This document shows positions 46,035-62,640 of a stretch of 64,000 nt of DNA, piece by piece (positions within the stretch are counted from its first letter, which is position 1; each line of letters begins with the position of its first letter). A program made the position numbers and the translations under genes. A model generated the notes under the pieces. It made no database searches and had not been told where the DNA came from. It saw nothing but the letters and a program-made list of their open reading frames with translations. Location: NCBI RefSeq assembly GCF_009914755.1, contig NC_060938.1; one strand, written 5' to 3'. Source of the stretch: the human T2T-CHM13v2.0 reference genome, Homo sapiens.

Positions 46035-48440
46035 CAGGTGGAAGACTAAATCCAAAGCTAGCAGAAGGAAAGAAATAACAAAGAGCATAGTTAGAGCATA
46101 AATCAATCAAATAGAAGGTTGGAGAGCAGTAGAATGAAAAAATGTAGATTCTTTGAAAGCTCAAGCCTTTCACTATATTGACTGAGCAAAAGATGGAAGA
46201 CTAATTATTAAAATAATAAATGAAAGCAGAGCCATTACTACCAACTTTACAGAAATACAAAAGGATTACAGGAGTATACTGTGAACAACTGTCTAGCAAC
46301 AAATTAGGTGCCCTGGATGAAATGGATGAATCGCTAGAAAGACACAAACTACCAAAGTGGCTCAAGAAGAAAGAGAAAATCTGAATAGACCTATAACCTA
46401 GGAGATTGAATTAGTAATCGAAAGCGATTAACAAAGAAACATTTATGACCAAATAGCTGCATTAACTGGTGAGTCAACCTAACATTTAAAGAAGAATTAA
46501 TACCATTTCTTCTCAAACTCTTCTGACAAAATATATGAAGAAGGAATACTTGCTAATTCATTTTTTGATAACAGCATTATCCTTATACCAAAGACAAAGA
46601 GAGCACAAAAGAGAGAAATACAGCACTATATCCCCTATGAATATATAAGCAAAAATCTCAGCAAACTACTAGCAATACTAGCAAAATACTAGCAGCAATA
46701 CTGTATAATCAAAGGATTGTAAACTATCACCCTTTGAGATTTATCCCCAAAATGCAAGGGTGGTTCAACATATAAAAAATCAATCAGTGTAATATGCTGT
46801 AACAGTAAAATGAATAAGCACGTGATTATTTCAATTGCTGCAGAGAAAACATTGATGAAATACAACACCCTTCTATAATAAAAATACTCTATAAACTAGG
46901 CATAGAAGGGATCTTCTGCAACATGACAATGGGATGTACAAAAACCCAACAGTTAATATCATGATCAATGATGAAACACTGAAAGCTGTTTTCCTAACAT
47001 CTAGAAGAAAAGGATGGTGCATTTGCCACTTGTATTCAACGTAGCACTGGCAGTTCTAGCCAGAGCAATTAGGCAAGACAAAGAAATAAAAGGCATCTAA
47101 ATTAGAAATAAAAAATAGGTGTAAAATTATATCTACACATGATCTTATAGGTATAAAGCTCCAAACAAAACACAAAACCGATTATAACTAATAAAAGAGG
47201 CAGGATGCAAACAAACATAGGCAAATGAGCTATATTTCTATATAGTTGTAAAGAACTATGAAAACATTTTAAAAATTCCATTTATAATGACATCAAGAAT
47301 ACGTTATTCAGGCATAAATCTAACCATGGTGGTATACACAAAACATTGCTGCAAAAAACTAAAGAGAGTGGAAATAAGTGGAAAGACATTCTGTGTTCAC
47401 GGGTTGTAAGACAATATTGTTAAGATGACAATACCATCTAAAGTAATCTACAGATTCAATGCAATACCATCAAAATCCCAAAGGCATTTTTGCAGAAACA
47501 AAGAAACTCATTCTAAAATCATACAAAAATTCAAAGGATCTGACAGACAAAACAGTCTTGAAAAAGAACATTGGAAAACTCACATTTTTCAGTTTCACAG
47601 ACTACTACAAATCTACAGTAATCAAGAGAGTGTGGTACTGGAATAAGACCAATAGACTTTCAGACAAATACAATAGAACAGATTGAGATCCTACAAGTTA
47701 GTCCTCACATATATGGTCAATGACTGTTCAACAAGGTGGCCAAGTCTAGTCAAGGGAGGAAAGAACAGTCTCTTCAACAGCTGGATGTCAGTGTACAAGA
47801 GAGAAGTTAGACCCCTACCTTGCAGTATATACAAAAATTAATTCTAAATTAATAAAAGACTTAAATGTAAGGACTAAAAATATGTAACTCTTAGAAGAAA
47901 ACACACGGTAAACCTTTATGACCTTTGAGTTTTAAGTGTATTTTGAAATATGACAGAAAAGCACAGATAACAAAAGAAAATACACGAAAATTAGATTTAA
48001 TCAAAATAAAAATCAAAGGATACTATCAAGGGAGTGAAAAGACAACCCATAATATGTGAGAAAATATGTATCTGATAAAATCAAAATGTGTATCTGATAA
48101 AAGCTTAATATCCCACAACTCAACAACAGAATTTCTAAGATCCCAATTAAAAAAATAGGCAAAGGACTTGAACAGACATTTCTCCAAAGAAGATACACAA
48201 ATGTCTAAGAAGGAAAAGAAAAGATGCTAAACACCATTATTCATTAATAAAATGCAAGGCAAAACCCAAATGAGATGCCACTTTGCATCCACTAGTAAGG
48301 CTTTCATAACAACGACACAGAAAATCAATGTTGCTAAGGAGGTGGAGAAACTGGAGCCCTCATGAACTGGCTGCTAGGAATAGAAAATGATGCACTTGCT
48401 GTGGAAAACAGTTTGGTGGTTCCTCAAAGAATCACACAGA
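46035..48440 (+). mobile_element. Old L1 ORF2 region (degenerate)
   Basis: ORF2 motifs in degraded form: 'aatgcaagggtggttcaacata', 'gttctagccagagcaattaggcaagacaaagaaataaaaggcatc', 'atctacagattcaatgcaatacc', 'gaacagacatttctccaaagaagata'. Confidence 0.85.
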
Positions 48441-48444
48441 GAAA

Positions 48445-49520
48445 CAGGCGGCGCTGGCTTGCGGGTTCTCCTGGGCTGGCGCGGGACGTCCCGGAATCGC
48501 AGGCGCGCATTCCTTCCCGCCTGAGGGCTCGCCTGGCCGTGACTCCTGCCCCTCTCCTCCTCCGAAGAGAGATCGGGGCCGCCCCAGGGGCCGTCTGCAG
48601 CCACCGGGGATGGGGCTGAGGGTCGGTTCCTGACCCGGTGCAGCCGCCCTTGGGCAGACCGCCTGGCTTGGTCGCAGCCACGGCGACATCTAGCCTCACT
48701 TCTGCGAGGCTGGGCGCGCCAGCCAGCTTGGGAGTCGCCCGGCGCCTGTAGCTGGGTGCCCAGGTGGTGGAGCATGCCCTGGGCCGCCTCTGGATCGCGG
48801 GTGCCCCTGGCCTGAGAGCCTGCCAGACCCTGCCCCGGTCCGGCTCCTCCTCTGTCAGAGCTCCAGATCTCTATCCAGGGGCCCTCTGCAGCCACCGGGG
48901 ATGGGGCTGAGGGCCGGTTCCCGCCCCTGTGCAGCTGCTGCAGGACAGACCGCCTGGCTTGGCCACAGCCACAGGGACATTTGGCCCTGCTTCCGAGATG
49001 TGGGGAGTGTGGGCGAGCTCGGGAGTTTCCTGGAGGCTGCTGCCTGCATGCACAAGGCAGCTGCAGCTCGGGTGCCCAGGCGGGCTGGAAGTGCATGGCC
49101 TGGTCGGCCTTGGGATCGCCAGCGCGCCCAGCCTGAGGTCCCCCAGGCCGTGCCTCCCGACCACTCCTCCACCTGAGGGAGATCGGAGCCATTTGTATGG
49201 GCACTCGGCAGTCACCTCGTGTGGGGTTGAGCGGTGGGTTCTCAGTTCTCGCTCCTGTGCAGCTGCTGCCGCAGGGCAGAATGCCTGGCTTGGCTGCAGC
49301 CACTGGGACACGTGGCCCTGCTTCTGTGATGTTATGAGCGCCAGCGGGCTCGGAGGTTGCCAGGCAGCTGCTGCCTGCACACAGAGGGCGACGGCAGCTT
49401 GGGCGCCCAGATGGCGGAGCATGGTTTGGGTAGACTCTGGAATGCGTGAGCGCCAGGCCTGAGGGTCACCCTGGTGGGGCCACATACCCTGGTCTTCCTC
49501 TGCTGGAGCCTGGAGCAGCT
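48445..49520. repeat. CpG-rich cassette made of ~3 diverged ~300-bp tandem units
   Basis: 'ctgcagccaccggggatggggctgaggg…gtgcagc…cagaccgcctggcttgg..(a/g)cagccac' at ~48595 and ~48886, and in more diverged form at ~49205-49310. High CpG content. Confidence 0.7.
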
Positions 49521-53439: not shown

Positions 53440-55620
53440 AGAAGGCCCATGAGGGGAAGGTGAGACACCTGGGGCAAAGAAGAAAAAAAAATGCGCCGTG
53501 AAGCAGTGCCTGGGTCATCCAGGGACGAAAGTTTTTTCCCATCAGACCTTGCGCTGGGCCCCAGGGACTCTGGCATCCCTGGTTCACACCCGGGTTGTGC
53601 CTTAGGCGACTAGGGGTACCCCAACTTGGACAGAAGGCCCGTGAGTGGAAGTTGAAGTTTGTGGGAGGAGAGGTGAGGCACCAGGGGCAGAAAAAATAAA
53701 AAAAGAGGACCGCGTCTCAGAGAAGCGGGGCCTGGGTCCCCCACGGATGAAAGTGCCTTCCCATCAGGCCCTATGCTGGGCCTGGTGGACCCTGGCGACC
53801 CTGGTTCGAGCCCAGGGTGTGCCTCGGGACAGCTTGGGGTACCACAAAGCAAACAAAAGGTCCATGAGGGGAAGTTGAGGCACCTGAGGCAGAGAAAAAA
53901 AAATGCTCAGCCGAGAAGCAGTGCCTGGGTCACCCACGGATGAAAGTGCCATCCCATCAGCCCCTTCGCTGGGCCCTGGGGACCCTGGCGTCCCTTGTTT
54001 GACCCTGGGGTACGCCTCGGGACAGTAGGGGTACCCAAGGTGGGCAGAAAGCCCCTAAGGGGAAGGTGAGGCACCTAGGGCAGAGAAAAAAAAAACTTCA
54101 CCACGGAGAAACACGGCCTGGGTGCCCCACAGACGAAAGTGTCTTCCCATCAGTCCCTGCACTGGGACCCAGGGACCCTGGTGTCCCTTGTTCGAGCTCA
54201 GGGTGTGCCTCGGCCGCTAAGTGCACCCCAAGGGGGCTTTGGGGACACAAAACCCGTGAGGGGAAGGTGAGTTTTGAGGGAGGAGAGGTGAGGCACCTGT
54301 CACAGAAAAAGAAAAAAAAGAAACCCGCACCACGGAGAGGTGGGGCCTGGGTACCCCACGGATGAAAGTGCCTTCCCATCAGCCCCTGCGCTGGGCCCCG
54401 GGGAACCTAGAGTCCCTGGTTGGAGCTCATGGAGAGTCTCGGGCCACTAGGGATACCCAACGCGGTGGAAAGCCCATGAGAGGAAGGTGAGCTGTGAGGG
54501 AGGAGAGGTGAGGCACTTGTGGCAGAAAAGAAAAAGAAACCGAGCCACGGAAAAGTGGGGCCTGGGTCTCCCATGGAAAAAAAGTGCCTTCCCATCAGTC
54601 CCTGAGCTGGGCCCCGTGGACGCTGGAGACCCCGGTTCGAGCCCCGGGTGCGCCTCGGGCCTGCTAGGGGTACCACAAGGGGGGCTAAAATCCCATGAGG
54701 GGCAGTTGAGGTTTGAGGAAGGAGAGGTGAGGCACCTGTGGCAGAAAAAAAAAACTGCACCACGGAGAAGCGGAGCCTGGGTCCCCAACGGACGAAAGTG
54801 TCTTCCCATAAGCCCTTGCGCTGGGCACAGGGGACCCTGGCATTCCTGGTTCGAGACCAGGGTGCGATTCAGGCAGCTAGGGGTACGCCAAGACAGACAG
54901 AAGGCCCATGAGGGAAAGGTGAGACACCTGGGGCAGAGAACAAAATAAAAAACTGCGCATCCCAGAAGTGGGGACTGGGTTCCCCATGGACGAACGTCCC
55001 TATCCATAAGCCCTACACTGGGCCCCGGAGACCCTAGCATCCCTGGCTCAAAACAAGGGTGCGCCTCGAGCCGGATAGGGGTACCTCAAGACGGGCAGAA
55101 AGCCCATGACGGGAAAGTGAGGCACCTGTGGAAAAGAAAAGAAAAAAAAACGCAACAGAGAAGAAGAGCCGGGGTCCCCGAGGAAGAAAGTGTCTTATCA
55201 TCAGCCACTGCGCTTGACCCTGTGGAACCTGGCTTCCATGGTTCGAGCCCAGGGTGTGCCTTGGGCGGCTAGGGGTACCCCAAAGCTTGCAGAAGGCACA
55301 AGAGGGGAAGGTGAGGCACCTGGGGCAGAGAAAAAAAAACCCAGCCACGGAGAAGCGGGGACTGGGTCCTCCACATGGACGAAAGAGTCTTCCCATCAGG
55401 CCTTGTGCTGGGCCTCAGGGACCCTGGAGTCCCTGGTTCGATCCCACAGTGCAAATCGGGCCACTAGCTGTACCCCAAGGCAGACAGAAGCCACATGTAG
55501 GGAAGCTGAGATTTGAGGAAGGAGAGGAAAGGCATCTATCGTAGCAAAAAAAAAAACCGTGCAAAGGAGAAGCAGGGCATGGGTCCCCCACAGACGAAAG
55601 TGCCTTCCCATCAGGCCCTG
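53440..55620. repeat. GC-rich ~190-220-bp tandem repeat, ~11 units (ACRO-composite-associated satellite)
   Basis: Unit starts (gaaggcccatgaggggaaggtgaggcacc…) at ~53441, 53633, 53855, 54047, 54248, 54467, 54687, 54900, 55098, 55292 and 55487. Each has an A-tract and 'gggtcccccacggacgaaagtg'; most have 'ggggtaccc'. Confidence 0.85.
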
Positions 55621-55995
55621 AGGGTTTGAAACAGCATGAGGAGTGACTAATGTCTACAGGGTTCTTCTCTGGTCGGGGGTGATAAGACGTTCTACAATGG
55701 ATTGCGAATTAAAATTGAAATTGCACGACCACATTTATACTAAAAGCCACTCAATTCATGACTTTTAATGGCGGAAACTTATGTGGCGCACTCTCATGGA
55801 GACCACGGCAGACATAGTGAGAGAGAAAAAGGTGAGTAAATATCTGAAACGGAGGCAGAAAGAGAGAGAATGAAAAGCCCTGTGAATGGAAGGGAGAGAG
55901 AAAAGGGAAAGTGGTCCTATTTACAAATGACAGATGTGAAACTGGGGTTCACATCAACAGTGTCACTGCCAGGAAGGAGGGTCATGCTAGCCATG

Positions 55996-57912
55996 TCACC
56001 GGTAGTGTGTTCCGCAGGGACGCCGACCTGCTGGAGCGTCGTGCCAGCATGGGCTCTGGCAGCCACGTGGGCCAGCAGGAGGGTCCCGTTGCACAGCTGT
56101 GGGGTGAGGATAGACTGGGTGGTGATATCGGCCATGACAGGGGCCTCTTCTGCTGGCAAGAGTGTGACAATAGCAAGTAGATGGACAGGCCTGCGTGTGA
56201 GGACGGAATGCAGGAGGGGCTCTTGTGCGGCTGGGTGTGGGGCCCTCACGGGAACCGTGGAGTAATGGCCAGGTAACTGCGTCATGTGGGCTAGTAGATT
56301 GGCCAGGGCTTCGAACTGAAGGACAATAACGGGGAGTAGCTGTCAGGCCCTGGGAGTGTCTGAGTGTAGGTGGAGATGGGTTTGGGGTCACAGAGGGATG
56401 CGTGGGAGCCATCCCTGTAGAGGTGCAGGTCATAGGGAGATAGTCTCGTGAGGCCTGTGAGTGTCTAGGGTTGTCCTGGGTGCCTGGGGCTGACTGTGGC
56501 AGAAATCTGGGGAAGGCTGGAGAGAAGCTGGGAGACCCAGGAGAGTCCCTGAAGGCAGGGGGTGAAGAGGTGAAAGAAATGGGGGAGGGTTGCAGTAAGG
56601 TCCGTGAGTTTGTAGGTGATTCCTGGGTGCGGGAAGCTGACTCCAGGTGAAATCTGGAGATGGTTGGAGAGTAGCTGAGAGAGACAGAAGAGTCCCTGAG
56701 GGCTGCGGGTGAGAACATGAGGGAGACTGGGGAGTAAGTCAGTGAAATTCGTGAGTTTGGTGGTGTATCGTGGGTGCCTGGAACTGACTCCAGCTGGAAC
56801 CTAGAGAAGTTTTGAGAGTAGCTGAAAGAGACACGAGAGTCCCTGTGGGCTGAGGGCAAAGACCTCAGAGAGACCGGGGAGGACCTCAGTGAAGTCTGTG
56901 AGTCCGTAGGTGATTCTGGAGTGTGGGAGGCTGACTCCCGCTGAAATCTGGGCGTGGTGGGAGAGTAGCTGGGACAGACAGGAGAGTCCCAGGGGGCTGG
57001 GGGTGAAGACATGAGAGAGACTGGGGAGTAACTCAGTGAAACTGCTGAGTTTGTAGGTGATACCTGGGTGCCTGGAACTGACTCCCGCTGAAATCTGGGC
57101 ATGGTTGGAGAGTAGCTGGGACCCCCAGGAGAGTCCCTGAGGGCTGGGGGTGAAGACATGAGAGAGACCGGGGAGTAACTGAGTGAAACTGGTGAGTCTG
57201 GTGGTGACTCCGGGGTGCCTGGAACTGACTCCAGCTGAAATGTGGGCGTGCTTGGAGAGTAGCTGGGACAGACAGGAGAGTCCCTGAGGGTTGGAGATAA
57301 AGACGTGCTAGAGACTGAGGAGTAACTGAGTGAAATTGGTGAGTTTGGTGGTGATTCCGGAGTGCCTGGAACTGACTCCAGCTGCAATGTGGGCTTGGCT
57401 GGAGAGTAGCTGGGACAGACGGGAGAGTCCCTGAGGGATGGTGAAGACATGAGAGAGACTGGGGAGTAACGCAGTGAAATTGGTGAGTTTGGTGGTGATT
57501 TCTGGTTGCCTGCAACGGACTCCCGCTGAAGTGTGGGCGTGTTTGGAGAGTAGCTGGGACAGTCAGGCGAGTCCCTGAGGGTTGGAGATAAAGACGTGCT
57601 AGAGACTGGGGAGTAACTCAGTGAAAGTGGTGGGCTTGGCGGTGATCCCTGGGTTCCTGCAACTGACTCGCGCTGAAATGTGGGCGTGGTTGGAGAGTAG
57701 CTGGGACAGACTGGAGGGTCCGTAAGGGCTGGGGGTGAAGACGTGAGAGAGACTGGCCAGGATCTCACTGAGGTCTGTGAGTTTGTAGGTGTTTCTGGGG
57801 TGTGGGGTACAGACTCCCGCTGAAATCTGGGCGTGGTTGGAGAGTAGCTGGGACAGACAGGAGAGTCATGGGTGGCTGGGGATGAGCTGCTGGATGATGG
57901 CAGTAAGAACAT
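55996..57912 (-). CDS. Ser/Pro-rich 49-aa-repeat ORF (ACRO1-type 147-bp repeats); 5'-truncated inverted copy, 638 aa from the first ATG
   Basis: Open frame to 57960, where the track start is a TTG outside the duplicated arm; first ATG at 57912. Nine full repeats plus a partial one, then a His/Cys/Arg-rich tail identical to the plus-strand copy. No promoter is recognisable for this copy. Confidence 0.4.
   Translation of the reverse strand: MFLLPSSSSSSPATHDSPVCPSYSPTTPRFQRESVPHTPETPTNSQTSVRSWPVSLTSSPPALTDPPVCPSYSPTTPTFQRESVAGTQGSPPSPPLSLSYSPVSSTSLSPTLRDSPDCPSYSPNTPTLQRESVAGNQKSPPNSPISLRYSPVSLMSSPSLRDSPVCPSYSPAKPTLQLESVPGTPESPPNSPISLSYSSVSSTSLSPTLRDSPVCPSYSPSTPTFQLESVPGTPESPPDSPVSLSYSPVSLMSSPPALRDSPGGPSYSPTMPRFQRESVPGTQVSPTNSAVSLSYSPVSLMSSPPAPWDSPVCPSYSPTTPRFQRESASHTPESPTDSQTSLRSSPVSLRSLPSAHRDSRVSFSYSQNFSRFQLESVPGTHDTPPNSRISLTYSPVSLMFSPAALRDSSVSLSYSPTISRFHLESASRTQESPTNSRTLLQPSPISFTSSPPAFRDSPGSPSFSPAFPRFLPQSAPGTQDNPRHSQASRDYLPMTCTSTGMAPTHPSVTPNPSPPTLRHSQGLTATPRYCPSVRSPGQSTSPHDAVTWPLLHGSREGPTPSRTRAPPAFRPHTQACPSTCYCHTLASRRGPCHGRYHHPVYPHPTAVQRDPPAGPRGCQSPCWHDAPAGRRPCGTHYR
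56470..57870 (-). repeat. ACRO1-type 147-bp satellite array (left, inverted copy)
   Basis: 147-bp period of 'ggagagtagctgggacagacaggagagtccctgaggg'; reverse complement of ~60225-61620. Confidence 0.85.
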
Positions 57913-57959
57913 GTGGTAAGGGCCGAGTCCCGCCAGACAGGCCTCCCACACTCGTAACA

Positions 57960-58400: not shown

Positions 58401-58411
58401 TGATTGGATTA
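58401..58411 (-). promoter_or_regulatory. DUX4-consensus site (TAATCCAATCA on the minus strand)
   Basis: tgattggatta at 58401-58411 fits the DUX4 motif TAAYYBAATCA. It lies ~530 bp upstream of the predicted TSS. Motif match only. Confidence 0.4.
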
Positions 58412-58873: not shown

Positions 58874-58945
58874 CTCCGCCCTTTCCGCTGCTAGGCTGCG
58901 CCCGAGGCTATTTAAACCCACCCTGGCTGGCCTGTACTCAGATCT
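58874..58945 (+). promoter_or_regulatory. Predicted Pol II core promoter: GC box, TATA box, Inr
   Basis: ctccgccc at 58874-58881; TATTTAAA at 58909-58916; Inr-like TCAGAT with A at 58940, 31 nt from the first T of the TATA box. Local CpG enrichment, and no ATG between 58940 and 59260. Confidence 0.6.
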
Positions 58946-59259
58946 TCGCGGAGCGGATCAGCGGCCGGAGCGTTTGGCGGACTCTGCGTGGACTTGGAGC
59001 TCACGGCGTCTTGCGACTTGGAAGCGGATTCAGAGGACAGGACAGAACACTTGGGCAAGTGAATCTCTGTCCGTCTGTCTTTCTGTCTGTCTGTGTGTCT
59101 GTCTCATTGGTTGGTTGATTTTCATTTTCTTAAGGGGCACATACCTCACACCGCACACACAGAAACACACACACACACGCACACACACGCACACACACTC
59201 CTTCCTTCTGCGAGTTAGAAAATTAGTAGGGGCCCCTGGGAGCTGCAGGTTTCCTAATC

Positions 59260-62096
59260 ATGTCTGCACCTAAGAACAGTTGGGAATTGTCTGGCTCTTC
59301 TTATGAACGGTCCCCCAGCCAGGACTCCCCAAGGTCCATGCGAGCCTCACCCAGCTTCTCCCTCTCCCCTCTCAGAAACTCAGGCTTAAGGGGAAGCTCC
59401 TCACCAGGGATCCGGAGCTACCATTCACCATCCCCTAGGGCTTCACCACACTCACCTCTGTCATCACCAGAATCCCACAAGCTCCCATTTGCCTGTCCTC
59501 ACCGTGATGGGCAATCAATGAAGCCATCGGGCTCTCCCGTGTCCTCCTCTGAGGATTCCTCAGAGTCCCCACGTTCATCAATAATATACCACATGTTCTT
59601 ACTGCCATCACCCAGCAGCTCACCCCCAGCTCTCGGGGGGTCTCCTGTGTCTCCCAGCTACTCTCCAAACAACCCCAGATTTCAGCTGGAGTCAGCCCCC
59701 CACACCCAGGAATCACCTACAAACTCACGAGCCTCACGGTGCTGCATCCCTGTGTCTTTCATCTCTTCACCCCCAGGCCTCAGGGACTCTCCTGTGGCTC
59801 CCAGTTCCTCTCCAGCCATCCCCAGGTTCCTGCGGGAGTCAGCCCCATGCACCCAGGAGTCCCCCAGAGACTCACATGTCTCGGGAGAATATGAGCGGTC
59901 CTCCAGCCCTGACTCCTCAAGATTCAGGCCTGCCTCACCCAGCTACTCCCTCTCCCCTCCCAGAAACTCAGACCCAAGGGCAGCTCCTCACCAGGGATGT
60001 GGAAGTACTCTACATCATCCCGCAGGGCTTCACCACTCTCACATCCATCATCAACAGAATTCCACAGCTTTACGTTTCCCTTTCCTAACCAAGCAGGACA
60101 GTCACTCATGTCATTGTGTTCTCCCGTGTCCTCCTCTGGAGATTCTTCACAGTCACCTCATTCATCAATAATATACCATATGTTCTTACTGCCATCATCC
60201 AGCAGCTCATCCCCAGCCACCCATGACTCTCCTGTCTGTCCCAGCTACTCTCCAACCACGCCCAGATTTCAGCGGGAGTCTGTACCCCACACCCCAGAAA
60301 CACCTACAAACTCACAGACCTCAGTGAGATCCTGGCCAGTCTCTCTCACGTCTTCACCCCCAGCCCTTATGGACCCTCCAGTCTGTCCCAGCTACTCTCC
60401 AACCACGCCCACATTTCAGCGTGGGTCAGTTCCAGAAACCCAGGGATCACCGCCAAGCCCACCACTTTCACTGAGTTACTCCCCAGTCTCTAGCACGTCT
60501 TTATCTCCAACCCTCAGGGACTCGCCTGACTGTCCCAGCTACTCTCCAAACACGCCCACACTTCCGCGGGAGTCCGTTGCAGGCAACCAGAAATCACCAC
60601 CAAACTCACCAATTTCACTGCCTTACTCCCCAGTCTCTCTCATGTCTTCACCATCCCTCAGGGACTCTCCCGTCTGTCCCAGCTACTCTCCAACCACGCC
60701 CACATTGCAGCTGGAGTCAGTTCCAGGCACTCCGGAATCACCACCAAACTCACTAATTTCACTCAGTTACTCCTCAGTCTCTAGCACGTCTTTATCTCCA
60801 ACCCTCAGGGACTCTCCTGTGTGTCCCAGCTACTCTCCAACCACGCCCACACTTCAGCTGGAGTCAGTTCCAGGCACCCCGGAATCACCACCAAACTCAC
60901 CAGTTTCACTCAGTTACTCCCCGGTCTCTCTCATGTCTTCACCCCCAGCCCTCAGGGACTCTCCTGGGGGTCCCAGCTACTCTCCAACCATGCCCAGATT
61001 TCAGCGGGAGTCAGTTCCAGGCACCCAGGTTTCACCTACAAACTCAGCAGTTTCACTGAGTTACTCCCCAGTCTCTCTCATGTCTTCAGCCCCAGCCCCC
61101 TGGGACTCTCCTGTCTGTCCCAGCTACTCTCCCACCACGCCCAGATTTCAGCGGGAGTCAGCCTCCCACACTCCAGAATCACCTACGGACTCACAGACTT
61201 CACTGAGGTCCTCCCCGGTCTCTCTGAGGTCTTTGCCCTCAGCCCACTGGGACTCTCGTGTCTCTTTCAGCTACTCTCAAAACTTCTCTAGATTCCAGCT
61301 GGAGTCAGTTCCAGGCACCCACGATACACCACCGAACTCACGAATTTCACTGACTTACTCCCCAGTCTCCCTCATGTTCTCACCCCCAGCCCTCAGGGAC
61401 TCTTCTGTCTCTCTCAGCTACTCTCCAACCATCTCCAGATTTCACCTGGAGTCAGCTTCCCGCACCCAGGAATCACCTACAAACTCACGGACCTTACTGC
61501 AACCCTCCCCCATTTCTTTCACCTCTTCACCCCCTGCCTTCAGGGACTCTCCTGGGTCTCCCAGCTTCTCTCCAGCCTTCCCCAGATTTCTGCCACAGTC
61601 AGCCCCAGGCACCCAGGACAACCCTAGACACTCACAGGCCTCACGAGACTATCTCCCTATGACCTGTACCTCTACAGGGATGGCTCCCACGCATCCCTCT
61701 GTGACCCCAAACCCATCTCCACCTACACTCAGACACTCCCAGGGCCTGACAGCTACTCCCCGTTATTGTCCTTCAGTTCGAAGCCCTGGCCAATCTACTA
61801 GCCCACATGACGCAGTTACCTGGCCATTACTCCACGGTTCCCGTGAGGGCCCCACACCCAGCCGCACAAGAGCCCCTCCTGCATTCCGTCCTCACACGCA
61901 GGCCTGTCCATCTACTTGCTATTGTCACACTCTTGCCAGCAGAAGAGGCCCCTGTCATGGCCGATATCACCACCCAGTCTATCCTCACCCCACAGCTGTG
62001 CAACGGGACCCTCCTGCTGGCCCACGTGGCTGCCAGAGCCCATGCTGGCACGACGCTCCAGCAGGTCGGCGTCCCTGCGGAACACACTACCGGTGA
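59260..62096 (+). CDS. Ser/Pro-rich, Pol II CTD-like 49-aa-repeat protein gene encoded by ACRO1-type repeats; split into 303-aa and 699-aa ORFs by a 1-nt deletion (945 aa if repaired)
   Basis: ATG 59260 has A at -3 and is the first ATG after the TSS. ORF 59260-60171 overlaps ORF 59997-62096 in the -1 frame. The internal duplicate 'agg gga agc tcc tca cca ggg' (59388) versus 'agg gc agc tcc tca cca ggg' (59977) places the missing G. Repeat unit: DSPVCPSYSPTTP.FQ.ESVPGT.ESPPNS..SLSYSPVSL.SSPPALR. ATTAAA at 62323-62328. Confidence 0.55.
60225..61620 (+). repeat. ACRO1-type 147-bp satellite array (right copy), 9 full units plus a partial unit
   Basis: 'gactctcctgtctgtcccagctactctccaaccacgcccagatttcagc' recurs every 147 bp (60225, 60372, …), with one 144-bp unit. 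Length and context agree with the acrocentric ACRO1/ACR1 repeat as recalled. Confidence 0.85.
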
Positions 62097-62334
62097 CATG
62101 GCTAGCATGACCCTCCTTCCTGGCAGTGACACTGTTGATGTGAACCCCAGTTTCACATCTGTCATTTGTAAATAGGACCACTTTCCCTTTTCTCTCTCCC
62201 TTCCATTCACAGGGCTTTTCATTCTCTCTCTTTCTGCCTCCGTTTCAGATATTTACTCACCTTTTTCTCTCTCACTATGTCTGCCGTGGTCTCCATGAGA
62301 GTGCGCCACATAAGTTTCCGCCATTAAAAGTCAT

Positions 62335-62640
62335 GAATTGAGTGGCTTTTAGTATAACTGTGGTCGTGCAATTTCAATTTTAATTCGCAATCCATTGTAG
62401 AACGTCTTATCACCCCCGACCAGAGAAGAACCCTGTAGACATTAGTCACTCCTCATTCTCTCTCAAACCCTCTTCCTGACCCTCAGCCCTAGGTAGCAAC
62501 TACCTAGTGCGATCAACCCCATATGCACAGATATCCATATTGTGGACATTTCCTACAAACGGAATTGCACAATAGGTGAGCTGTTATGACTGACATAACA
62601 CGTAGCACAATATTTTCAAGATTCATCCACATTGTAGGCT
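62335..62640 (-). mobile_element. Old L1 (L1M) 3'-end fragment
   Basis: 'ggacatttcctacaaacggaatt…gcacaatattttcaagattcatccacattgtag' is a typical antisense L1M 3' end. Confidence 0.6.

What the first reader, a model, noticed from the sequence alone, without database searches (positions are those of the whole stretch)
58874..62328. The 147-bp ACRO1-type 'satellite' looks like the coding repeat of a complete Pol II gene for a CTD-like Ser/Pro-rich protein
Seen in sequence: the 147-bp unit equals 49 codons. Nine clearly diverged units stay open in one frame, the only length variant (144 bp) is a clean 3-nt deletion, and the other plus-strand frames are interrupted. The array sits in a gene-like layout: GC box, TATA at -31, Inr, an ATG-free leader, a first ATG with A at -3, a unique C-terminal tail, a stop at 62094-62096 and ATTAAA at 62323. 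Most units carry PSYSPTTP or a close variant, and many carry a second SYSPVS. Established knowledge: the RPB1 CTD heptad is YSPTSPS, and S/T-P sites are CDK/MAPK/Pin1 targets. ACRO1 is catalogued as a satellite of acrocentric short arms and pericentromeres. Inference: a multicopy primate gene family hidden under repeat masking, encoding a disordered phospho-scaffold or CTD decoy. The motifs are spaced 49 aa apart rather than tandem, so CTD mimicry is a hypothesis.
Basis: partly seen in the sequence, partly recalled or inferred. Interest (0 to 1): 0.92.

Follow-up and report, generated by a model that had tools for sequence, protein, structure and literature searches.

The report
ACRO1 satellite hides a multicopy ORF
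The 147-bp ACRO1 "satellite" is the internal 49-codon repeat of an intronless open reading frame that is kept open in most of its roughly 200 human copies and in a marmoset, although the copy in this window is broken by a one-base deletion.

Summary
The sequence features are real: GC box, TATTTAAA, Inr, an ATG-free leader, ATG at 59260, ten in-frame 147/144-bp units, TGA at 62094 and ATTAAA at 62323. This copy is not a complete gene. A 1-nt deletion in a G run at about 59978 splits it into ORFs of 303 and 699 aa in different frames. An inverted, promoterless partial copy lies at 55620-57918.

CHM13 holds 224 matches to the start-codon anchor. Of 34 complete copies examined, 27 carry one ORF from the same ATG to the same stop (944-1377 aa), and 33 of 34 have lengths divisible by 3. 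On the paralogue tree dN/dS is about 0.95. Nonsense changes are depleted (8 observed, about 20 expected, strongest in the coding frame), and so are non-3n indels relative to the flanks (P=0.001). Between repeat units omega is about 0.76. A marmoset protein of 832 aa has the same start, architecture and tail.

Best reading: a primate-specific intronless gene family inside the 6-kb ACRO composite. Selection keeps the frame open, but the disordered Ser/Pro-rich sequence drifts almost freely. The window copy is a pseudogene. Translation is unproven. The CTD likeness was published in 2020, and CTD mimicry remains untested.

The parts
58401..58411 (-). Match to the DUX4-type consensus TAAYBBAATCA (TAATCCAATCA), about 530 nt upstream of the predicted start site
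   Evidence: 1 match in the window against 0.9 expected by chance, so not significant on its own; one site at the corresponding offset in 29 of the 30 ACRO loci. The consensus is recalled, not taken from a call.
58878..58883 (+). GC box (CCGCCC)
   Evidence: read directly.
58909..58916 (+). TATA-like box TATTTAAA
   Evidence: The same octamer is kept in 30 of 30 paralogous loci.
58938..58944 (+). Initiator-like TCAGATC with its A at 58940 (predicted start site, not shown experimentally)
   Evidence: The A lies 31 nt after the first base of the TATA box.
58940..59259 (+). ATG-free leader holding (TCTG)n at 59066-59104 and (CA)n at 59154-59198
   Evidence: no ATG in 58930-59259; the two microsatellites.
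59260..60171 (+). ORF of 303 aa from the family's start codon. It is authentic up to about codon 240 and out of frame after the deletion.
59635..59928 (+). Two diverged ACRO1-type 49-codon units inside the N-terminal part
   Evidence: units at residues 125 and 174 of the intact form; 77-80% matches to the main array.
59976..59980 (+). Site of the 1-nt deletion (AAGGG where other copies have AAGGGG or AACGGG) that breaks the frame in this copy
59997..62096 (+). ORF of 699 aa in the family's original frame downstream of the deletion. It holds the array and the tail.
60222..61688 (+). Main ACRO1 array: ten units of 147 nt (one of 144 nt at 60516). The last unit grades into the tail.
61689..62093 (+). 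Non-repeated C-terminal tail with the block HTQACPSTCYCHTLASR, which is kept across primate sequences. It is predicted to be disordered.
   Evidence: alignments; mean pLDDT 48, pTM 0.10, no secondary structure.
62094..62096 (+). Stop codon TGA, shared by the family
62323..62328 (+). ATTAAA poly(A)-signal-like hexamer, 227 nt after the stop
   Evidence: Kept in 29 of 30 loci.
55620..57918 (-). Inverted, truncated second copy equal to 60174-62472: array, tail and 3' flank, with no promoter and no N-terminus. It holds an ORF at 55996-57912 of 638 aa.

Best explanation
The locus is one unit of the roughly 6-kb ACRO composite repeat.

What each unit carries:
- An intronless transcription-unit-like module: a CpG-rich TATA/Inr promoter, a 320-nt ATG-free leader, one long ORF, and ATTAAA.
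- The ORF is built from a block of about 110 aa, two 49-aa units, a duplicate of that block, a variable run of 49-aa units (the ACRO1 'satellite'), and a unique Cys/His-containing tail.

Shown here:
- The frame is kept open in most human copies, and a marmoset protein shares the architecture.
- Stop-creating changes and frame-breaking indels are rarer than context-matched neutral expectation.
- Amino-acid replacements accumulate at close to the neutral rate.
- The window copy is a pseudogene of this family (a 1-nt deletion), next to a truncated inverted copy.

Inferred:
- The family is or was translated into a disordered, basic protein of 100-150 kDa, with about 24% Ser, 18% Pro and 93 S/T-P sites.
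- Length and composition matter for this protein more than exact sequence.

Taken from the literature, not tested here:
- ACRO1 RNA is induced by DUX4 and rises in cleavage-stage embryos. The product would therefore act around embryonic genome activation, most plausibly as a substrate or scaffold for proline-directed kinases.
For: Copy number and ORF state:
- 224 matches in CHM13 to the 23-nt start-codon anchor (up to 2 mismatches); the reversed control gave 0.
- of 34 complete copies, 27 have one ORF from the same ATG to the same TGA, of 944, 945, 993, 1041, 1042, 1090 or 1377 aa. Of the 34, 33 have lengths divisible by 3. A 35th copy (L036) is open for all 1464 codons fetched.

Substitutions on the paralogue tree:
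- (35 copies, 30 distinct, chr19 copy as outgroup, 818 mapped substitutions): 8 nonsense changes against 19.4 expected from trinucleotide-context-matched permutation. None of 1000 permutations gave 8 or fewer.
-, frame control: frame 0 had 8 against 19.9 expected, frame +1 had 18 against 14.9, and frame +2 had 11 against 17.9.

Small indels (events):
- In the coding part, 5 events, of which 4 are 3 nt long.
- In the flanks, 13 events, of which 2 are multiples of 3.
- Fisher P=0.022. For depletion of non-3n events in the coding part, binomial P=0.0013.

Older divergence:
- the chr19 copy is about 7% diverged over 2985 nt, with only 3-nt indels.
- between repeat units there were 75 synonymous changes against 59.6 expected. 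None of 2000 permutations reached 75. Omega is about 0.76.

Other primates:
- marmoset protein P0005 (832 aa) has the same start. Its N-terminal 330 aa are 71% identical with one 1-aa gap, and its tail of 160 aa is 74% identical with no gap.
- Plecturocebus proteins and several unnamed sequences carry the tail.

Flanking signals:
- TATTTAAA is kept in 30 of 30 loci and ATTAAA in 29 of 30. The leader has no ATG.

Literature (passages read):
- ACRO1 RNA peaks at the 4-cell stage (PMC6545021).
- DUX4 induces ACRO1 transcripts (PMC8990217, PMC11467316, 10.64898/2025.12.22.696056).
- ACRO1 is hypomethylated in sperm and spermatogonial stem cells, and its RNA rises in the early embryo (PMC5832720).
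Against: - dN/dS among human paralogues is 0.95-0.98 and not different from 1. Changes are spread evenly over codon positions: 131, 164 and 156.
- The coding part diverges at about 0.8 times the rate of its flanks.
- Of the 34 complete copies, 7 are broken. One is the window copy (frameshift); the other six carry 1-2 stops each.
- Frame +2 also shows a mild stop deficit (P=0.038).
- An alternative-frame ORF starting MTQLPGH (122 aa in 28 copies, 163 aa in one) persists in 29 of 30 copies. Short ORFs can therefore survive at this low divergence without selection.
- There is no Pfam family and no predicted fold in the tail.
- The hub's table lists no RefSeq model at this site.
- No human protein of this family appeared in the 5.8-billion-protein search. 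The 100%-identical hits were unnamed contigs and a Plasmodium 'hypothetical protein', which I read as human contamination.
- In reporter assays, 1.1-1.4 kb of ACRO1 in one orientation almost abolished the host RNA, and no stable ACRO1 RNA was found in HeLa (PMC7714431, sections 7 and 9).
- The marmoset sequence is an automatic prediction. I could not see its DNA, and it contains a stretch of about 60 aa that reads like another frame.
- I saw no Ribo-seq or peptide evidence.
Confidence: 0.6

Rival explanations
1. Relic ORF. An ancestral gene or a lucky ORF was captured in the ACRO composite and amplified. Today the frame is not translated and drifts. Any function lies in the RNA or DNA, for example Pol II-binding aptamer RNA, heterochromatin or nucleolar organisation.
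For: - Omega is 0.95-0.98 among paralogues, with changes even across codon positions.
- Of 34 complete copies, 7 are broken.
- The main clades differ by only 2-4%, so many copies are open simply by recent descent.
- The alternative-frame ORF starting MTQLPGH persists in 29 of 30 copies.
- ACRO1 RNA binds Pol II and disrupts elongation in cis (PMC7714431, section 9).
- There is no domain and no predicted fold.
Against: - Stop-creating changes are depleted mainly in the ORF frame.
- Non-3n indels are depleted relative to the flanks.
- The chr19 copy is 7% diverged and has only 3-nt indels.
- There is an excess of synonymous change between units.
- The marmoset protein has the same start, architecture and tail.
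Confidence: 0.3
2. CTD decoy. The protein is made, and its YSPxxP motifs mimic the RPB1 CTD. It would then compete for CTD kinases, Pin1 or CTD-interacting domains. This is a special case of the best explanation.
For: - The 945-aa form has 9 YSPxxP heptad-like motifs, 15 YSP and 93 S/T-P sites.
- True RPB1 proteins appear as weak hits, at E of 1e-4 to 5e-4.
- Automatic pipelines named relatives 'RPB1' or 'RPB1-like'.
- A global alignment with 23 of 49 residues identical to the CTD has been published (PMC7714431, section 7).
Against: - The motifs lie 49 aa apart, not in tandem.
- There is no Pfam CTD-repeat match at E up to 1.
- The marmoset units often lack the Y-S-P core, for example SVSYPPA and SRSCPPT, so the motif is not conserved.
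- No binding or phosphorylation data exist.
Confidence: 0.08
3. Chance ORF. The open frame is a by-product of the C/T-rich composition of a non-coding satellite.
For: The + strand is poor in stops in all frames, with 12 and 17 in the two other frames against 41-86 on the minus strand.
Against: - The frame has 0 internal stops over 945-1377 codons, where shuffles reach 385 at most.
- The frame also runs through about 1.1 kb of N-terminal sequence and 0.5 kb of tail that lie outside the main ACRO1 array.
- Start and stop are the same in human and marmoset.
Confidence: 0.02

Closest known systems
ACRO1 satellite within the ACRO composite (ACRO_Comp, 'ACRE')
   Same: This is that element. The unit is 147 bp. 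Gene starts are spaced 6.2-7.4 kb apart in arrays on chr13, 14, 15, 21 and 22, with further copies on chr1, 2, 3, 4, 19 and 20. This matches the published 6-kb composite of ACRO1, L1PA10, MER21B and L1MB8 (10.64898/2025.12.22.696095; PMC7714431; 10.1101/2021.07.12.451456; passages read).
   Different: In the passages I read, it is catalogued as a satellite or composite repeat and treated as an RNA aptamer source. None of them describes the promoter, the shared ATG and stop, the range of ORF lengths, the share of intact copies, or tests of frame preservation.
D4Z4 macrosatellite with its DUX4 ORF, and other gene-bearing macrosatellites
   Same: Both are tandem kb-sized units that each carry an intronless ORF. 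Both are primate arrays in subtelomeric or acrocentric heterochromatin, and both give RNA in cleavage-stage embryos. The T2T repeat paper notes composites whose core units hold protein-coding annotations (10.1101/2021.07.12.451456, passage read). The details of D4Z4 are recalled.
   Different: DUX4 has folded homeodomains and a known function. The ACRO ORF has no domain, no predicted fold in its tail and an omega near 1. It is reported as a target of DUX4, not a relative of it.
RPB1 C-terminal domain (YSPTSPS heptads)
   Same: The composition is Ser/Pro/Thr/Tyr-rich. There are one or two heptad-like motifs per unit (SYSPTTP, SYSPVS), and true RPB1 proteins appear as weak sequence hits.
   Different: The heptads are not in tandem: the period is 49 aa. 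There is no Pfam CTD match, the motif is poorly kept in marmoset, and no polymerase body is attached.
Coding minisatellites (protein-coding tandem repeats such as mucin-type VNTRs; recalled)
   Same: The repeat unit is a multiple of 3 nt. Copy number varies between alleles or paralogues and changes protein length: 945, 993, 1041, 1090 and 1377 aa.
   Different: Here the whole gene is itself the unit of a second, larger tandem array with about 200 copies.

Membership tests
ACRO1 satellite / ACRO composite | Tandem unit of 147 bp | tested here: met
   period 147, 9.5 copies, 78% matches; ten units, nine of 147 nt and one of 144 nt.
ACRO1 satellite / ACRO composite | Embedded in a higher-order unit of about 6 kb, arrayed on acrocentric short arms | tested here: met
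   start anchors are spaced 6.2-7.4 kb apart in arrays on chr13, 14, 15 and 21. One search adds chr22. The window lies on chr14p.
ACRO1 satellite / ACRO composite | Flanking L1PA10, MER21B and L1MB8 pieces | not testable with these tools
   No repeat library was on hand. The composition is taken from 10.64898/2025.12.22.696095 (passage read).
Protein-coding gene | Uninterrupted ORF with a start and stop shared among copies | tested here: met
   Of 34 complete paralogues, 27 meet this. It is NOT met by the window copy, which has a 1-nt deletion.
Protein-coding gene | Selection against stops and frameshifts | tested here: met
   Nonsense changes were 8 against 19.4 expected, with 0 of 1000 permutations at or below 8. 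Non-3n indels are depleted with P=0.0013.
Protein-coding gene | Purifying selection on amino acids (dN/dS below 1) | tested here: inconclusive
   Paralogues give omega 0.95-0.98, not different from 1. Between units omega is about 0.76, with 0 of 2000 permutations reaching the observed synonymous count. The N-terminal part against the chr20 and chr2 copies gives 0.78 and 0.59, with P=0.14 and 0.0075.
Protein-coding gene | Conservation of the ORF in another species | tested here: met
   Marmoset P0005, 832 aa, has the same start and tail. Only protein was available, it is an automatic model, and I did not see its DNA.
Protein-coding gene | Capped, polyadenylated transcript and translation | not testable with these tools
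   Only published repeat-level RNA data exist (PMC6545021, PMC5832720, PMC8990217). No Ribo-seq or peptide evidence turned up in the ACRO1 literature I searched.
RPB1 CTD-like repeat | Consecutive heptads of YSPTSPS type | tested here: not met
   There are one or two heptad-like motifs per 49-aa unit and none in tandem. There is no Pfam match at E up to 1.
DUX4 target | DUX4-type site near the promoter | tested here: inconclusive
   One consensus match lies about 530 nt upstream, which is not above chance in the window. It is kept in 29 of 30 loci. The consensus is recalled and binding was not tested.

The most novel reading that the evidence does not exclude
The ACRO arrays on the acrocentric short arms may be a gene family of about 200 copies rather than a satellite. 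On DUX4-driven genome activation in the 4-8-cell embryo they would produce a disordered, heavily phosphorylatable Ser/Pro-rich protein of 100-150 kDa with CTD-like YSPxxP motifs. That protein could act as a sponge or condensate scaffold for CTD kinases, Pin1 or CTD-binding factors, perhaps next to the forming nucleoli. Its dose would be set by an array copy number that changes between generations.
Probability: 0.1. Interest if true: 0.9.

Novelty: new member of a known kind. Interest (0 to 1): 0.62.

Why it matters
If the ORF is translated, one of the most acrocentric-specific repeats of great apes would be a protein-coding family that annotation has missed. The family is copy-number-variable and reported to respond to DUX4. 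That would bear on embryonic genome activation, on facioscapulohumeral muscular dystrophy (where DUX4 is misexpressed), and on cancers that derepress satellites. It also gives a concrete frame, start and set of peptides to look for in data mapped to T2T assemblies. If the ORF is not translated, the frame preservation seen here still needs an explanation.

Tried and rejected
Protein annotation and structure:
- Pfam on the two window ORFs and on LOC124907358 gave no family at E up to 1.
- AlphaFold2 on the C-terminal tail with an 11-row alignment gave mean pLDDT 48 and pTM 0.10, so no fold and no support for a zinc-binding module.
- The ESM Atlas returned what is probably the protein's own cluster (993 aa, auto-named 'extensin-like') and an 'RPB1-like' cluster. 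These are leads only.

Literature and earlier notes:
- Literature search was badly posed. With min_terms 2 it did not force ACRO1, and it returned nothing relevant.
- Supplements of PMC12746033 had 0 occurrences of ACRO1, RPB1 or POLR2A in the 2 files held. The figure naming the 'most variable genes' could not be seen.

Genome census:
Smaller fetches gave 11 loci. Only 41 of the 224 anchor sites were examined, and 124 sites were never listed.

Analyses discarded or uninformative:
- Global alignment of the chr2 short form against long forms misplaced the large gap, giving about 22% apparent mismatch. I discard those dN/dS rows.
- The two 'nonsense' events are artefacts of parsimony on multi-hit codons, because no extant unit has a stop.
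- On the outgroup branch only one of the three chr19 stops was polarised, so the true nonsense count may be 10 rather than 8.
- Conservation of TATA, ATTAAA and the DUX4-like site across copies is uninformative at 2-4% divergence.

Ideas rejected:
- Whole-unit indels as evidence for coding. They keep the frame automatically.
- A link between the 147-bp unit and nucleosome core length. Nothing here tests it.
Full report
**What is in the window.**
- The leader has no ATG in 58930-59259 and contains a (TCTG)n and a (CA)n run. The first ATG is at 59260, in AATCATGT.
- TRF finds a 147-bp array at 60225-61618 with 9.5 copies and 78% matches, plus a 441-bp higher order.
- I parse ten units from 60222. 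Nine are 147 nt and one, at 60516, is 144 nt.
- One + frame of the array has no stop in 464 codons. The other + frames have 7 and 4 stops, and the minus frames have 22-43.
- The stop is TGA at 62094-62096, and ATTAAA lies at 62323-62328.

- The ORF from the first ATG is 59260-60171 (303 aa). The ORF through the array is 59997-62096 (699 aa). They lie in different frames.
- Alignment with paralogues shows a 1-nt deletion in a G run at 59978-59980. The window copy is therefore a frameshifted pseudogene, unless this is a residual homopolymer error of the assembly.
- The stretch 60174-62472 is repeated in inverted orientation at 55620-57918, with 27 differences in 2299 nt. That copy has a 638-aa ORF on the minus strand but no promoter and no N-terminus.

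**The family in the same genome.**
- A DNA search of the window's genome found full-length relatives at 94-97% identity and many more at about 91% that differ in unit number.
- The 23-nt start-codon anchor has 224 matches with up to 2 mismatches, and the reversed control has 0. Matches are spaced 6.2-7.4 kb apart in arrays on chr3, 4, 13, 14, 15 and 21, with single sites on chr1, 2, 19 and 20. Only 100 of the 224 were listed. One search adds chr22.
- I examined 41 loci: 30, 5 and 6.
- Thirty-four are complete copies. Of these, 27 have one ORF from the same ATG to the same TGA, of 944, 945, 993, 1041, 1042, 1090 or 1377 aa, and 33 have a length divisible by 3.
- A 35th copy (L036) is open for all 1464 codons fetched.
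- Broken copies: the window copy (frameshift), L010 and L022 (2 stops each), and L021, L024, L030 and L038 (1 stop each).
- The other six loci are dispersed:
  - The chr2:161.74 Mb copy is an intact short form of 358 aa whose homology ends 53 nt after the stop.
  - The chr19 copy is 2985 nt long with 3 stops and no frameshift.
  - The chr1, chr20, chr2:132.7 Mb and chr14:5.83 Mb copies are truncated.

**Anatomy of the product.**
- The order is: a block of about 110 aa, two 49-aa units, a diverged duplicate of the block, 10-13 or more units, then a unique tail.
- The composition is 23.6% Ser, 18.3% Pro and 7.8% Thr, with few Lys.
- The 945-aa form has 93 S/T-P sites, 15 YSP and 9 YSPxxP motifs.
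- There is no Pfam family.
- The tail holds a block (HTQACPSTCYCHTLASR) that is kept across primate sequences. AlphaFold2 gives no fold for the tail: mean pLDDT 48 and pTM 0.10.

**Is the open frame more than youth and composition?**
- Composition alone fails. The longest ORF in 500 shuffles averaged 183 codons with a maximum of 385, against 945 observed.
- Youth matters. The main clades differ by only 2-4%, and an alternative-frame ORF starting MTQLPGH survives in 29 of 30 copies.
- I therefore mapped substitutions on the paralogue tree and compared them with permutations that move each change to another site with the same trinucleotide context.
- With 25 distinct sequences there were 451 changes: 125 synonymous, 320 non-synonymous and 6 nonsense. 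The expectations were 121, 317 and 12.9. Omega was 0.98, and P=0.015 for the nonsense deficit.
- With 30 distinct sequences and the chr19 copy as outgroup there were 818 changes: 240, 569 and 8, against 228, 570 and 19.4 expected. Omega was 0.95, and none of 1000 permutations gave 8 or fewer nonsense changes. At most two further chr19 stops were left unpolarised.
- The deficit is strongest in the ORF frame. Frame 0 had 8 against 19.9, frame +1 had 18 against 14.9, and frame +2 had 11 against 17.9 with P=0.038.
- For small indels I left out whole-unit events (which keep the frame automatically) and microsatellite events. The coding part has 5 events, of which 4 are 3 nt. About 2.5 kb of flanks has 13, of which 2 are multiples of 3.
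- Fisher's test on these counts gives P=0.022. Depletion of non-3n events in the coding part has P=0.0013 (events).
- The coding part diverges at about 0.8 times the rate of the flanks.
- Between the 15 repeat units of one copy (mean identity 75%) there are 75 synonymous changes against 59.6 expected, and none of 2000 permutations reached 75. Omega is about 0.76.
- The N-terminal 1161 nt against the chr20 and chr2 copies give omega 0.78 (P=0.14) and 0.59 (P=0.0075).

**Other species.**
- A search of 5.8 billion proteins with an intact 945-aa copy found a marmoset protein of 832 aa, automatically named RPB1, with the same start, architecture and tail.
- Its N-terminal 330 aa are 71% identical with one 1-aa gap, and its tail of 160 aa is 74% identical with no gap.
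- That identity is about what I would expect from near-neutral change, but the neutral human-marmoset divergence behind this judgement is recalled, not measured.
- The marmoset protein has a stretch of about 60 aa that reads like another frame before returning to the tail. I could not see its DNA.
- Two Plecturocebus proteins and several unnamed sequences carry the tail.
- A 361-aa protein from an unnamed assembly is 98% identical to the human chr2 short form.
- No human protein of the family appeared. The 100%-identical hits were unnamed contigs and a Plasmodium ovale 'hypothetical protein', which I read as human contamination.

**Literature.**
- Boots et al. 2020 (PMC7714431; sections 7, 9 and 12 read) described ACRO1 inside 6-kb 'ACREs' found only in primates.
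  - They reported that the translated consensus shares 23 of 49 residues with the CTD.
  - They found that ACRO1 RNA binds Pol II and that 1.1-1.4 kb inserts abolish a reporter RNA in one orientation.
  - They detected no stable ACRO1 RNA in HeLa. They treat ACRO1 as an aptamer source, not a gene.
[quoted passage not shown] Its held supplements gave nothing further.
- ACRO is described as a composite of ACRO1, L1PA10, MER21B and L1MB8, with more than 90% of its bases on acrocentric chromosomes (10.64898/2025.12.22.696095, passage read). It is listed as ACRO_Comp on 12 chromosomes (10.1101/2021.07.12.451456, passage read).
- ACRO1 RNA peaks at the 4-cell stage (PMC6545021) or rises after cleavage (PMC12287470).
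- It is induced by DUX4 (PMC8990217, PMC11467316, 10.64898/2025.12.22.696056).
- The DNA is hypomethylated in sperm and spermatogonial stem cells (PMC5832720). For all of these I read passages only.
- In the searches, which cover only the held library, I found no description of the promoter, the shared ATG and stop, the ORF census, or frame tests.

**Reading.**
- Shown: the ACRO1 array is the internal repeat of a long intronless ORF with promoter-like and poly(A)-like flanks. Stops and frameshifts in it are rarer than neutral expectation. A New World monkey has a protein of the same build. Amino-acid change is close to neutral. The window copy is broken.
- Inferred: the family is or recently was translated into a disordered Ser/Pro-rich protein for which length and composition matter more than exact sequence. 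High copy number would relax selection on each single copy.
- From the literature: it is expressed around DUX4-driven genome activation.
- CTD mimicry is possible but weak. The motifs are 49 aa apart and poorly kept in marmoset.
- The main rival is a drifting relic ORF whose RNA or DNA carries any function.

**Verdict.** The gene-family interpretation is supported by frame-preservation tests, though not by amino-acid constraint, and translation is unproven. The CTD idea is already published and remains untested.

Noticed in passing
window 53720-55510; ORF 54447-55040 (-): A tandem repeat with a period of 193-229 bp lies next to the left arm of the palindrome, and a 197-aa ORF (MLGSPGPSVGL...) runs through it. 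Similar ORFs lie in the flanks of ACRO loci L008 and L009.
   Followed up: no
window 61807-62175 (+): A 122-aa ORF in another frame overlaps the end of the main ORF. An ORF with the same start (MTQLPGH) is present in 29 of 30 paralogous loci, at 122 aa in 28 of them. This warns that short ORFs persist at this low divergence.
   Followed up: partly
L031 (G000:C2:161739200-161744700), ORF 634-1710: A single copy on chr2 at 161.74 Mb carries an intact 358-aa short form: block, two units and tail. Its homology to the ACRO unit ends 53 nt after the stop. It is 98% identical to a 361-aa protein from an unnamed assembly.
   Followed up: partly
P0006 and P0005: A 'hypothetical protein' of Plasmodium ovale wallikeri is 100% identical to the human ORF over 30% of its length, which I read as human contamination. 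The marmoset relative is automatically named RPB1. An ESM Atlas cluster of 993 aa is auto-named 'extensin-like'.
   Followed up: no
just beyond the window end (G000:C14:4033401, about window position 65401): The next ACRO gene start lies about 6.2 kb downstream of this one on the same strand. The window therefore ends inside a short tandem array.
   Followed up: no
window 48374-49096 (-), LOC124907358: The predicted 240-aa protein has an internal duplication (...RRS.LQ.LHR..NRPSAPSPVAA.GPW... occurs twice) and no Pfam family.
   Followed up: no
L036 (G000:C14:2300-7000), L039, L041: Units in the distal arrays with 7.1-7.4 kb spacing carry much longer ORFs. Two are 1377 aa, and one near the chr14p telomere is open for at least 1464 codons to the edge of the fetched stretch.
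   Followed up: partly
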